This document shows, in pieces, positions 18,301 to 21,300 of a DNA stretch of 64,000 nt. Under the pieces are notes generated by a model, which was not told the DNA's origin, ran no database searches, and saw only the letters and a list, made by a program, of their open reading frames with translations. Position 1 is the first letter of the stretch, and each line of letters opens with the position of its first letter. The stretch covers positions 21,390,001-21,454,000 of the forward strand of contig OX597820.1 of the NCBI GenBank assembly GCA_951406725.2, given 5' to 3'. Source of the stretch: Octopus vulgaris. Lineage: Eukaryota. Made by a program: the position numbers and the translations under genes.

Positions 18301-21300
18301 AAATTGAAAGTATGATAGAAGAAGGCTTGCTCTTTCTTCCGTAGAAGATAAAATTCAAATCGGACCATGTTAACACCAAAAATTATTTACATCAAAAGGG
18401 TGCTTTTTTTCTATGAAAACCCCTATTTTTTACGATATTTTGACTGCTGTATCGCCATTTTTTGGTGTATTTCAACCAGAAAAATGTTCACTTAAAGAGA
18501 ATAACAAGCTACATAATGCAAAATTTTTACTTTTCAAAAATTCCAATTCTAAAGGGTCGAAAAGAAAACAAGCCCGAGCAACGCTGGGCTATACTGCTAG
18601 TTCTAAATATTTTTGAATGGAATATTACAGACAGTTTGTGACAGCTTATATAAAAACATAGAAATATAAACAGCTCATCAGACTGAATTCCCATTTAATA
18701 TAGTAGATCGAGAATATCATCATCATCATCATCATCGTCATCATTTAACATCTATTTTTCATGTTGGCATAAGTTGGATTATTTGATAGAATCTGATGGG
18801 TCTAGGGACCACATCATATTCTAGTGTCTATTTTGGAATAGAGGGCACCTGACTCAGTGGTTAGAACATCAGGCTCTCAATCATGAGTTAGTGAGTTTGA
18901 TTCCTGGACTGGGTTGCGTGTTGTGATCTTGAGCAAGACACTTTATTTCATGTAGCTCCAGTCCACTCAGCTGTAGAAATGAGTTGCGACATCACTGGTG
19001 CCAAGCTGTATCAGCCCCTTTGTTTTTCCCTTGGATAACATTTCTGGTGTAGAGAAGAGAGGCTGGTATGCATGAGTGACTGCCAGTCTTCCATAAACAA
19101 TCTTGCCCAGACTTGTGCTTCAGAGGAGAACTTTCTAGGTGCAATGCAGGTCTGGTTATTCATGACCAAAGAGGCTTTTACTTTGGACTGGTTTCTATGA
19201 CTAGATGCCTTTCTCAATGCTGACCACTTTAGAGAAAATACTGGATGCTTTTTTGTACCCTGGTCAAACCGTCCAACTTATGCCAACATGGATAACGGAT
19301 GCTAAATGATGATGATGATGATGATAATGATGATGTTATTAAAGGGTTTATGTTAAAGGATATACAATTATTTATTATAGGTGATTTTTTACTTACATTT
19401 AACAACAAAGTTACAAGATGTAGTGGTAAATCCACTTGGATTACTAATCTCACAAGTGATGTCTCCAGCATCTGAAGGATTGACATCACTTAAAGTGAGG
19501 GTATAACGATCTCCATCTCGTTTAACTGAAGCTCTGCTGCTGCTGCCAAACTCTAAACCATTCTTCAGCCTAGATTTAAAAGAAAATAGTATACAGAAAT
19601 ATACAATAATACATATTTCAAAGTAATATATTTTTATTCATCACAAAGTTAAAACATAGATTTACATACAGTTCTATATTTAAGAGATGAGGGATTGTTT
19701 ATATTATTTACATTATTTACATTCAACGGATATTTGTCCTCATCTTGTTTGCTGTTAACACAATGATTCGGCTGATATACCCTCCAGCCTTCATCAGGTG
19801 TTTTGGGGAAATTTTGAACCTGGGTTCTCATTCCTAAGGTATTTTCGATGTTGTTGTTGTTATTATTATTATTATTATTATTATTATTATTATTATTATT
19901 ATTATGGCCAGCCTCGCCTGGCCCTTGTGCCGGTGGCACATAAAAAGCACCATCCGTTCGTGGCTGTTTGCCAGCTCTGTCTGGCACCTGTGCGGGTGGC
20001 ACGTAAAAGGCACCCACTACACTCACGGAGTGGTTGGCGTTAGGAAGGGCATCCAGCCGTAGAAACACTGCCAGATTTGACTGGGCCTGATAATAATAAT
20101 AATAATAATAATAATAATTATTATTATTATTATTATCAGGCCCAGAAGCCTTCTGGCTTCACAGACCCCAGTAGAACCGTCCAACCCATGCTAGCATGGA
20201 AAACGGACGCTAAACGATAATGATGATGATGATGATTATGATTATTATACTTATTATTCAGGGCATATGATGTAGTGGTTAAAAGTGCAGGCTACTAACC
20301 CCAAGATTCCAAGTTCAATTCTAGGCCTTTAGTAGAAAGGATTATTATTATTATTATTCAATTAATTCAATAGTGAAATATATACCAGCGAATTTCAGGA
20401 TCAGGTTTGCCATAGACTTCAACTTGGAAGGTAGCGGTACCACCTTGTGGAGCAGTAGTATTCATCAGTTTCTTGGTAAATTCAGGAATACATCCAACTG
20501 TAAACAAATAGATAACACATAAATCATTTGTCATTATATCAGTGAGCCTAACAAAGAACAAAAAATAGGGGACGTTTGAATTAAATTTCAGACTGAGTTC
20601 ATAGAAGGGTTATAACCCTTTCGTTACTGTATTTATTTTGAGATGCTCTGTGTTTCTTTCAATTACTTTCAATATAACAAAGAATTTAGTAAAATAACTT
20701 TGTTATCATTCAGTTAATGTTAGGAACATAAATTGTGACTAAGGTTTGGTAAATTCAGGAATACATCCAACTGTAAATAAATAGATAACACATAAATCAT
20801 TTGTCATTATATCAGTGAGCCAGAGCCGGTTTCAGCCGGGTTGGTAACGAAAGGGTTAAACGTACCAATCTTTTCTTTGACTTTAATTGGTCCACTGGGA
20901 GGACTTGGTTCTCCTACTCCACCTGCATTCACAGCACATACTCGGAATTCATGTTCAGAATTTTCAGGTAGATTTGATACCGTGTAACTGGTATCAATTA
21001 CTGGATAGTCGTTAGTTTTGATCCATTGGTTGCTATGTGGATCTTTCCTTTCAATGATGTAACCTGGAATAGTCATATAAATACTAGCATCACAATCTGT
21101 ATAAACATGAATTAATGAATCACTGAATAACTATTGAAAGGAAACGATGTGGTTATCTTTTAATTTTTTACTGTTTACTTGTTTCATGGGGCCATGCTGG
21201 GGCCATGCTGGAGTAATGCCTTGAAAAGTTTTAGTCAAACGAATCAACCCTGGTACTTGTGTTTTTTTTTAAAAGTCAGGTACTAATTCCATAGATTGTT

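What the first reader, a model, noticed from the sequence alone, without database searches (positions are those of the whole stretch)
20473..20866. piggyBac-type MITE has captured the adjacent exon's splice acceptor, creating an upstream stop-coupled decoy 3' splice site
Seen: 20746-20821, inside the MITE, is a 76-bp copy (1 mismatch) of 20473-20548. That segment holds the last 51 intronic nt including CAG plus the first 25 nt of exon 20386-20497. The sister MITE at 60086-60305 has unrelated internal sequence at this position, and the swap is bounded by microhomologies (TTGGT, GAGCC). In transcript order the copied acceptor (20771-20772) comes first, about 94 nt after the donor at 20865. Splicing to it reads [10 protein letters not shown] then TAG. 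The MITE sits about 10 bp from that donor. Inference: templated capture by template switching or gap repair produced a competing acceptor that would yield an NMD target or a twitchin lacking the kinase.
Basis: partly seen in the sequence, partly recalled or inferred. Interest (0 to 1): 0.72.

Follow-up and report, generated by a model that had tools for sequence, protein, structure and literature searches.

The report
Transposon holding a copied splice acceptor
A small jumping-gene remnant inside an intron of the muscle gene twitchin carries a 76-base copy of the neighbouring intron-exon boundary, likely a recent DNA-repair scar; splicing to the copy would cut the protein short before its kinase, but the copy is probably mostly ignored because the element's paired ends are predicted to loop it out.

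Summary
Positions 20746-20821 copy 20473-20548 (76 bp, 1 mismatch) and replace the 46-bp core of a piggyBac MITE between two 5-nt microhomologies (chance of both about 5e-5). The segment occurs only twice in the genome, so the capture never spread. The MITE shares its terminal repeats with piggyBac-transposase elements. The host gene is twitchin.

The copied AG is the first AG after the donor (95-nt intron) and leads to a stop upstream of the kinase. Its use is not shown: two RNA contigs join the donor only to the authentic acceptor, but those animals may lack the capture. The capture is known only from this assembly; one other animal's contig enters the MITE and crosses the parent segment unbranched.

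New here: the MITE's perfect 15-bp terminal stem is predicted to loop the copy out of the pre-mRNA and restore the old ~124-nt intron geometry.

Verdict: a small, recent, single-copy Pack-TIR-like repair scar that duplicated an acceptor, probably mostly silent and not a regulatory switch. Substantial decoy use about 25%, artefact about 10%.

The parts
20866..21063 (-). Twitchin exon upstream of the intron (3' part of an Fn3 domain, ends ...KEKI + 1 nt)
   Evidence: Pfam fn3 E 2e-7; spliced contigs X5, X7
20860..20865 (-). 5' splice site GTACGT, intact
   Evidence: sequence; joint 20497/20866
20856..20859 (.). TTAA target-site copy at the donor-side end of the MITE
   Evidence: sequence
20616..20855 (+). 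piggyBac MITE, 240 bp here against 220 bp for the family; 4 of 174 bases outside the core differ from the majority of 40 copies
20844..20858 (-). 5' arm (in the transcript) of the perfect 15-bp terminal stem: 12-bp terminal repeat plus 3 target-site bases
   Evidence: pair probabilities 0.76-1.0, duplex -21.7 kcal/mol
20613..20627 (-). 3' arm of the 15-bp terminal stem
20817..20821 (+). Microhomology GAGCC shared by MITE and template
20746..20821 (+). Captured copy: 76 bp with both microhomologies; 66 bp (20751-20816) replace the 46-bp family core
20771..20772 (-). Copied (decoy) acceptor AG, first AG after the donor, 95-nt intron; the branch-point-like words 45, 41 and 22 nt upstream are copied with it
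   Evidence: use not shown
20746..20750 (+). Microhomology TTGGT shared by MITE and template
20739..20741 (-). In-frame TAG reached if the decoy is used; 353 nt upstream of the next donor
20605..20620 (.). 16-bp perfect palindrome across the left MITE end; target-site copy reads TATAA
   Evidence: sequence
20473..20548 (+). Parent segment (template): 51 nt of intron end plus 25 nt of exon
20498..20499 (-). Authentic acceptor AG (368-nt intron)
20386..20497 (-). Twitchin exon, 112 nt, start of an I-set Ig domain
   Evidence: Pfam I-set E 2.5e-5
1204..1404 (-). Twitchin kinase-domain exon, downstream of the potential premature stop
   Evidence: PDB 1KOB twitchin, E 2.4e-36
60086..60305 (+). Sister MITE with the normal core (comparison copy)

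Best explanation
A piggyBac MITE sits 10 bases from a twitchin splice donor, and its 46-base core is replaced by a copy of the intron end and exon start 273 bases away, likely through a recent microhomology-primed template switch during repair or replication; the copied acceptor would give a stop before the kinase but is probably mostly bypassed, because the element's ends are predicted to pair and loop it out. Shown: the insertion, the replacement, both microhomologies, single-copy status, the reading frame, and authentic splicing in two RNA runs. Inferred mechanism: a 3' end ending in TTGGT inside the MITE re-annealed to the same word in the exon, copied 66 bases plus GAGCC, and rejoined the MITE at its own GAGCC. 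Inferred timing: after insertion and recent. Inferred effect: the 15-bp stem brings the donor within 122 unlooped nt of the real acceptor (about 124 nt before the MITE came), and the real acceptor keeps the short 112-nt exon against 385 nt for the decoy; any leak would be degraded or truncated. No sign of a selected function.
For: Core replaced in the focal copy only: 40 of 40 aligned copies have the family core. With both exact anchors the genome holds 1569 copies with a 43-52-nt core (the 100 listed all look family-type), 6 with 53-83 and 2 with 84-114; of these 8 long ones only the focal copy has lost the family core and holds outside sequence of this length. The parent segment matches at 2 places in the genome, both here. 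Microhomology of 5 or more at both ends arose in 5.25e-5 of 400,000 random switches. Contigs of 5 of 6 DNA-type runs start 20-27 letters inside the donor-side MITE end (under the tool's 31-letter bridging rule); run X2 also has one unbranched contig over 20331-20639, crossing the parent segment and entering the other MITE end. X2 has the parent's base at the mismatch site, which suggests the change arose in the copy. Copy-parent divergence is 1 of 76 (95% range 0.03-7%), like the 3 substitutions and 1 gap in 308 between X2 and the assembly. Single-copy Pack-TIRs show the same cis bias, microhomology and capture after insertion (PMC8277862). Stem pair probabilities 0.76-1.0 in three folding windows. 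Human exons looped out by paired regions are included less (PMC8052449). Amphioxus boundary duplications are reported not to disturb splicing (PMC3087553). A polypyrimidine-rich AG 50 nt upstream of the real one is already passed over in the RNA contigs.
Against: No reads from the assembled animal were available, so neither the capture nor its silence is shown independently. The two RNA runs may come from animals without the capture and then say nothing about the decoy. The decoy is the first AG, carries the same branch-point-like words and pyrimidine count (10 of 14) as the real site, and a short upstream intron with a long downstream one favours the upstream 3' site in human data (PMC9225289). 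The decoy is transcribed about 150 nt before the second stem arm, so it could be chosen first. Predicted local accessibility of decoy and real acceptor is about equal (0.31 against 0.33-0.39), and the region as a whole folds no better than shuffles (z -0.61). The template is longer and farther than usual for Pol-theta loop-out repair (repeat motif within 30 bp; PMC5728401). All splicing rules cited come from humans, flies or amphioxus.
Confidence: 0.6

Rival explanations
1. The copy is a working competing acceptor: the donor pairs across the 95-nt intron in a sizeable share of transcripts, giving a 385-nt exon with an early stop, so this haplotype is a reduced-function twitchin allele.
For: First AG after the donor, no AG in between, 50 of 51 intronic bases and 25 exonic bases identical to the real site. 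A 108-nt intron is predicted by homology in the same gene and this intron was about 124 nt before the MITE, so short introns are plausible here. Upstream 3' sites are preferred when the upstream intron is under 250 nt (PMC9225289). The stop lies 353 nt before the next donor and upstream of the kinase.
Against: Predicted 15-bp stem around the decoy. The decoy exon would exceed 250 nt; shorter exons were preferred in that paper's 5'-site analysis (PMC9225289). Mirage-type copies are reported to be ignored (PMC3087553). Only the authentic junction is in the RNA contigs of 2 of 2 runs, though carrier status is unknown.
Confidence: 0.25
2. The duplicate is an assembly or consensus error; the animal has an ordinary MITE here.
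For: The capture is known only from this assembly. Run X2 shows the MITE ends and an unbranched parent segment. The copy is nearly identical to a sequence 273 bp away.
Against: Both junctions fall on 5-nt microhomologies, far shorter than assembler overlaps (inference from how assemblers work), and the copy differs from the parent at one base. The MITE is intact on both sides. Other copies of the family show self-templated direct and inverted insertions in the same core, so such scars do arise here.
Confidence: 0.1
3. The same end product arose in another way: a 273-bp tandem duplication between the two TTGGT words and a later deletion between the two GAGCC words, or gap repair triggered by transposase cutting.
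For: The two-step route gives a letter-for-letter identical product (inference from the geometry). Tandem MITE arrays with a ~252-bp unit exist in this genome (L076). Transposase copies with long open frames exist.
Against: It needs two separate events that each use a 5-nt word. Both breakpoints are internal and both terminal repeats are intact, which PMC8277862 takes as a sign of transposition-independent repair. No intermediate was seen.
Confidence: 0.2
4. The decoy is a selected regulatory switch (a poison acceptor coupling twitchin level to decay, or making a kinase-less isoform).
For: The layout resembles stop-coupled alternative acceptors (recalled, not tested). The focal stem is perfect, against 4 of 31 other copies scored.
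Against: Copy and parent differ at 1 of 76 bases, so it is young. X2 shows the locus with an unbranched parent segment. No RNA support. The perfect stem is not significantly unusual.
Confidence: 0.03

Closest known systems
Single-copy Pack-TIRs made by transposition-independent gap filling (Tan et al. 2021, PMC8277862; 12 passages and Methods section 14 read)
   Same: A terminal-repeat element with an internal stretch replaced by nearby host DNA in cis, microhomology at the breakpoints, internal breakpoints, single copy, capture apparently after insertion.
   Different: The cargo is 66-76 bp (their cut-off is over 100 bp) and the parent lies 67 bp from the element (they excluded parents with a TE within 100 bp), so their pipeline would miss it. 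The word piggyBac does not occur in their main text. The cargo is the host intron's own acceptor, in sense orientation. Their supplementary case list was not read.
'Mirage' duplications of intron-exon boundaries in amphioxus (globin BflGb6/BflGb9, Adh3; PMC3087553, 7 passages read)
   Same: An intron end plus exon start is copied upstream of the real exon with its AG intact; there, regular splicing is reported to be unaffected.
   Different: Mirages are head-to-tail minisatellite arrays with length instability; this is one dispersed copy inside a transposon, bounded by microhomologies.
[quoted passage not shown] 2017, PMC5728401; 12 passages read)
   Same: The product is primer repeat + templated insert + microhomology repeat, as a direct repeat of nearby DNA.
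   Different: There the repeat motif ends within 30 bp of the junction and primers are mostly under 10 bp apart; here the template is 273 bp away and 76 bp long. The enzyme cannot be named from sequence.
Competing 3' splice sites under intron versus exon definition (Carranza et al. 2022, PMC9225289; abstract, section 9 and passages read) and exon loop-out by paired intronic regions (PMC8052449; 12 passages read)
   Same: Two near-equal acceptors compete for one donor; distance favours the upstream one and a flanking stem disfavours it.
   Different: Those are human transcriptome trends for conserved sites; here the pair is a young natural duplicate, and the stem is a transposon's terminal repeat.

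Membership tests
piggyBac non-autonomous element (MITE) | TTAA target-site duplication | tested here: met
   TTAA on both sides in 32 of 40 copies; the focal copy has TTAA at 20856-20859 and an altered TATAA at the other end.
piggyBac non-autonomous element (MITE) | Terminal inverted repeats beginning CCC, shared with a piggyBac transposase-coding element | tested here: met
   Among 30 PF13843 loci, L085 (2635 bp) and L092 (2529 bp) are bounded by the same terminal repeat on both sides, with 22 of 23 matching bases at the left end; L079, L081 and L097 share the right end.
piggyBac non-autonomous element (MITE) | Short, high copy number, too small for a transposase | tested here: met
   220 bp between target sites; at least 1577 copies with both exact anchors.
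Pack-TIR (Tan et al. 2021) | Both ends of one terminal-repeat element flank host-derived sequence with a unique parent at 90% identity or more | tested here: met
Pack-TIR (Tan et al. 2021) | Internal sequence longer than 100 bp (their operational cut-off) | tested here: not met
   66 bp unique, 76 bp with microhomologies; criterion.
Pack-TIR (Tan et al. 2021) | Parent has no transposon within 100 bp (their filter against segmental duplication) | tested here: not met
   The parent ends at 20548, 67 bp from the MITE at 20616; criterion.
Pack-TIR, gap-filling class | Microhomology at breakpoints beyond chance | tested here: met
   5 nt at both ends; 5.25e-5 in 400,000 simulated switches.
Pack-TIR, gap-filling class | Element without cargo at the orthologous site in relatives | tested here: inconclusive
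   X2 contigs enter both MITE ends by 27 letters and cross the parent unbranched, but no contig spans the MITE core and contigs drop rare variants.
Multicopy Pack-TIR / Pack-MULE-like mobilised capture | Cargo-bearing element amplified to other loci | tested here: not met
   The cargo matches only its parent and the focal copy.
Mirage minisatellite | Head-to-tail tandem array of an intron-exon boundary | tested here: not met
   One copy, 273 bp from its parent, separated by intron and MITE sequence.
Stop-coupled alternative 3' splice site | Upstream AG leads to an in-frame stop well before the next junction | tested here: met
   TAG at 20741-20739, 353 nt before the next donor.
Stop-coupled alternative 3' splice site | The site is used in transcripts | tested here: inconclusive
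   Only the authentic joint in 2 of 2 RNA-type runs; carrier status unknown; contigs only, no raw reads.
Stop-coupled alternative 3' splice site | The product is degraded by nonsense-mediated decay | not testable with these tools
   Needs carrier tissue with decay blocked.

The most novel reading that the evidence does not exclude
The terminal repeats of a MITE act as an RNA clamp that hides the element and whatever it captures from the spliceosome. This allele is then a natural competition test between two almost identical acceptors, decided by a race between choosing the 95-nt intron and closing the stem about 150 nt later. Captured splice sites could sit silently inside MITEs and become active stop-coupled acceptors when the stem decays, is edited, or folds late, here switching off the twitchin kinase.
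Probability: 0.2. Interest if true: 0.58.

Novelty: new member of a known kind. Interest (0 to 1): 0.3.

Why it matters
If the best explanation holds, this is a clean small example of gap-filling capture by a piggyBac MITE, of a size and position that the published Pack-TIR screen filtered out, which suggests that sub-100-bp local captures are undercounted. It also warns annotators: short reads across this junction map equally well to both acceptors, so a false 95-nt intron and a truncated twitchin model could be called. If the decoy is used, the assembly carries a reduced-function allele of a major muscle gene. If the terminal stem is what silences it, that offers a testable reason why MITEs next to splice sites are tolerated.

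Tried and rejected
1) Lack of cover over the captured part. No contig of the 6 DNA-type runs or the 2 RNA-type runs was laid on 20764-20792 or 20765-20814. This fits a rare or private allele, but it is a hole: contigs are filtered, X1 and X6 were read to 76% and 80%, and five of the six DNA runs also lack cover over most of 20390-20590. Not counted as evidence.
2) Word shares. The best RNA-type holder has 0.46 of the words; exons alone predict 0.30 and a decoy-extended exon 0.64, before MITE words are added. A weak hint that no indexed run holds the extended exon; not counted.
3) Extended similarity between the family core and the template as a driver of conversion: score 19.5 against shuffles 15.6 +/- 4.7, p 0.23. 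Rejected.
4) Masking of the decoy by local structure: unpaired probability 0.31 against 0.33-0.39 for the real site; whole-region z -0.61. No difference; only the terminal stem is well defined.
5) Selection for a perfect stem: 4 of 31 other scored copies are perfect too (9 of 40 could not be scored); not significant.
6) A MITE-free ortholog: the metagenome scan gave 18 loci, all matching only the 19-23-letter pattern. No relatives are held for this genome.
7) Rfam: 0 matches at E up to 1 for 20200-21200.
8) Protein searches with the upstream exon: none, and generic Fn3-repeat proteins without names; the gene was named from the kinase exon instead.
9) Literature: nine searches that ran listed no report of this locus or of a MITE capturing its host intron's acceptor; the library lacks most subscription journals. 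PMC13282606 (3 passages read) lists piggyBac and MITE counts for an octopus without describing this family. No supplements were read.
10) Earlier findings near this place or like this sequence: none.

Full report
Observation. The duplicate is real in the assembly: 20746-20821 equals 20473-20548 at offset 273 with one mismatch. A dust-masked self-comparison of the window returned no other close, near-identical direct repeat of 40 bp or more. A search of the whole genome with 20440-20612 matched only the parent and this copy. The parent is the last 51 nt of an intron and the first 25 nt of a 112-nt exon on the minus strand.

Gene. The flanking exons encode Fn3 and I-set Ig pieces. An exon at 1204-1404 matches twitchin kinase (PDB 1KOB, E 2.4e-36), and mollusc twitchin-like proteins tile the downstream exons. 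Spliced contigs from 2 of 2 RNA-type runs join 20866 to 20497, skipping 368 nt; the X7 contig (1928 nt, depth 353) runs on into both neighbouring exons. The genome looks like an octopus genome; that label is my inference from its features and from earlier notes, not a tool result.

The element. Forty other near-full-length copies align over about 220 bp, with TTAA on both sides in 32 of 40. Elements of 2.5-2.6 kb that encode a piggyBac transposase domain have the same terminal repeat (L085, L092), so this is a non-autonomous piggyBac derivative. The focal copy differs from the majority of those copies at 4 of 174 bases outside the core; the copies were picked by likeness to it, so this is a low estimate.

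The capture. All 40 aligned copies have a 46-47-bp core (one with a short insert) between TTGGT and GAGCC; the focal copy has 66 bp of twitchin there. With both anchors exact, the genome holds 1569 copies with a core of 43-52 nt, 6 with 53-83 and 2 with 84-114. Only 100 of the 1569 were listed, so same-length replacements among the rest are not excluded. Of the 8 long ones, five carry self-templated direct or inverted additions, one has a 15-nt insert with no 8-nt match inside the element, one lies in a tandem array, and only the focal copy has lost the core to outside DNA. Microhomology of 5 or more at both ends arose in 5.25e-5 of simulated switches. The layout is primer word, templated insert, rejoining word, as in loop-out repair (PMC5728401), though longer and farther than described there. 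It matches the gap-filling class of single-copy Pack-TIRs (PMC8277862) but fails two of that paper's operational filters, so I say it works like one and do not file it as one. A tandem duplication followed by a deletion would give the same letters and cannot be excluded.

Other animals. Only assembled contigs were offered, no raw reads. In 5 of 6 DNA-type runs a contig from the upstream exon starts 20-27 letters inside the donor-side MITE end, which is short of the tool's 31-letter bridging rule but points to a shared insertion. Run X2 has one contig over 20331-20639 that crosses the parent segment without a break and enters the other MITE end. It has the parent's base at the mismatch site and another base at 20521, where parent and copy agree in the assembly. 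This suggests the copy was made on the assembly's own haplotype line, after the insertion. Contigs drop rare variants, so this is moderate evidence. The capture itself is known only from this assembly; I put the chance of an artefact at about 10%, because both junctions fall on 5-nt words and the copy differs from its parent.

Splicing. The copied AG is the first AG after the donor (95-nt intron) and brings the same branch-point-like words as the real site. Use would give [10 protein letters not shown] and a stop 353 nt before the next donor, upstream of the kinase; decay of such a transcript is expected from general knowledge and was not tested. For use: human data favour the upstream 3' site when the upstream intron is under 250 nt and the downstream one long (PMC9225289; here about 820 nt), and a 108-nt intron is predicted in the same gene. 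Against use: the MITE's ends form a perfect 15-bp stem (pair probabilities 0.76-1.0, -21.7 kcal/mol) that starts 7 nt after the donor, encloses the decoy, and leaves 122 nt to the real acceptor, close to the 124 nt the intron had before the MITE. Looped-out exons are included less in humans (PMC8052449); duplicated boundaries in amphioxus are reported not to disturb splicing (PMC3087553); and a pyrimidine-rich AG 50 nt upstream of the real one is already passed over. The stem can close only about 150 nt after the decoy is made, so a race is possible. The RNA contigs show only the authentic joint but may come from non-carriers. Reads to the two acceptors are the same for 25 nt, so any test needs longer overhangs.

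Verdict. The functional reading is open and less likely than silence. Best explanation: a recent, single-copy, microhomology-bounded repair scar in a piggyBac MITE that happens to duplicate a splice acceptor, probably mostly bypassed (0.6). Rivals: working decoy and reduced-function allele (0.25), artefact (0.1), selected switch (0.03); a two-step or transposase-triggered origin (0.2) concerns only how it arose. Novelty: new member of a known kind. Interest 0.3.

Noticed in passing
window 20549-20620: The left MITE end lies in a 16-bp perfect palindrome with TATAA in place of TTAA. The 64 bp beside it hold three MITE-like words of 8-11 nt out of order (coverage by 10-mers p about 0.003 against other window stretches, chosen after the fact) and 12 nt matching the end of another piggyBac family (L102, E 0.6). 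It may be an older element remnant or repair filler. X2's contig covers it with few changes, so it is likely older than the capture.
   Followed up: partly
L056 (G000:C28:23772201-23772286), L055, L075, L053: Other copies of the MITE carry an inverted snap-back insert (13-nt match), internal direct duplications or a short insert in the same core, which suggests this core is a recurrent break or slippage site.
   Followed up: partly
L076 (G000:C30, locus 711-1661); also L007, L016, L028: Head-to-tail arrays of the MITE with units of about 252 bp that include a short flank, and arrays of half-elements of about 127 bp.
   Followed up: no
L077, L078, L079 (G000:C15, C4, C13): piggyBac transposase matches with open frames of 494-581 codons and no stop inside the match; L077 and L078 are bounded by terminal repeats of a sister family, and L079 has this MITE's right end.
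   Followed up: no
window 20548-20549: A pyrimidine-rich cryptic AG 50 nt upstream of the real acceptor, right at the edge of the copied segment; not used in the RNA contigs laid.
   Followed up: partly
window 22167-23400: A long 21-bp minisatellite inside a twitchin intron, followed by a TACA-type microsatellite next to the exon near 23580.
   Followed up: no
window 32969-33208: A minus-strand frame that resembles a mitochondrial NADH dehydrogenase subunit (recalled motif, not tested); possibly a mitochondrial insertion in an intron.
   Followed up: no
window 20476-20509 (inferred from depths): All four DNA runs laid at 92% had a short piece of about 34 letters on the acceptor segment, apparently from another locus; the own-genome search did not find such a place.
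   Followed up: partly
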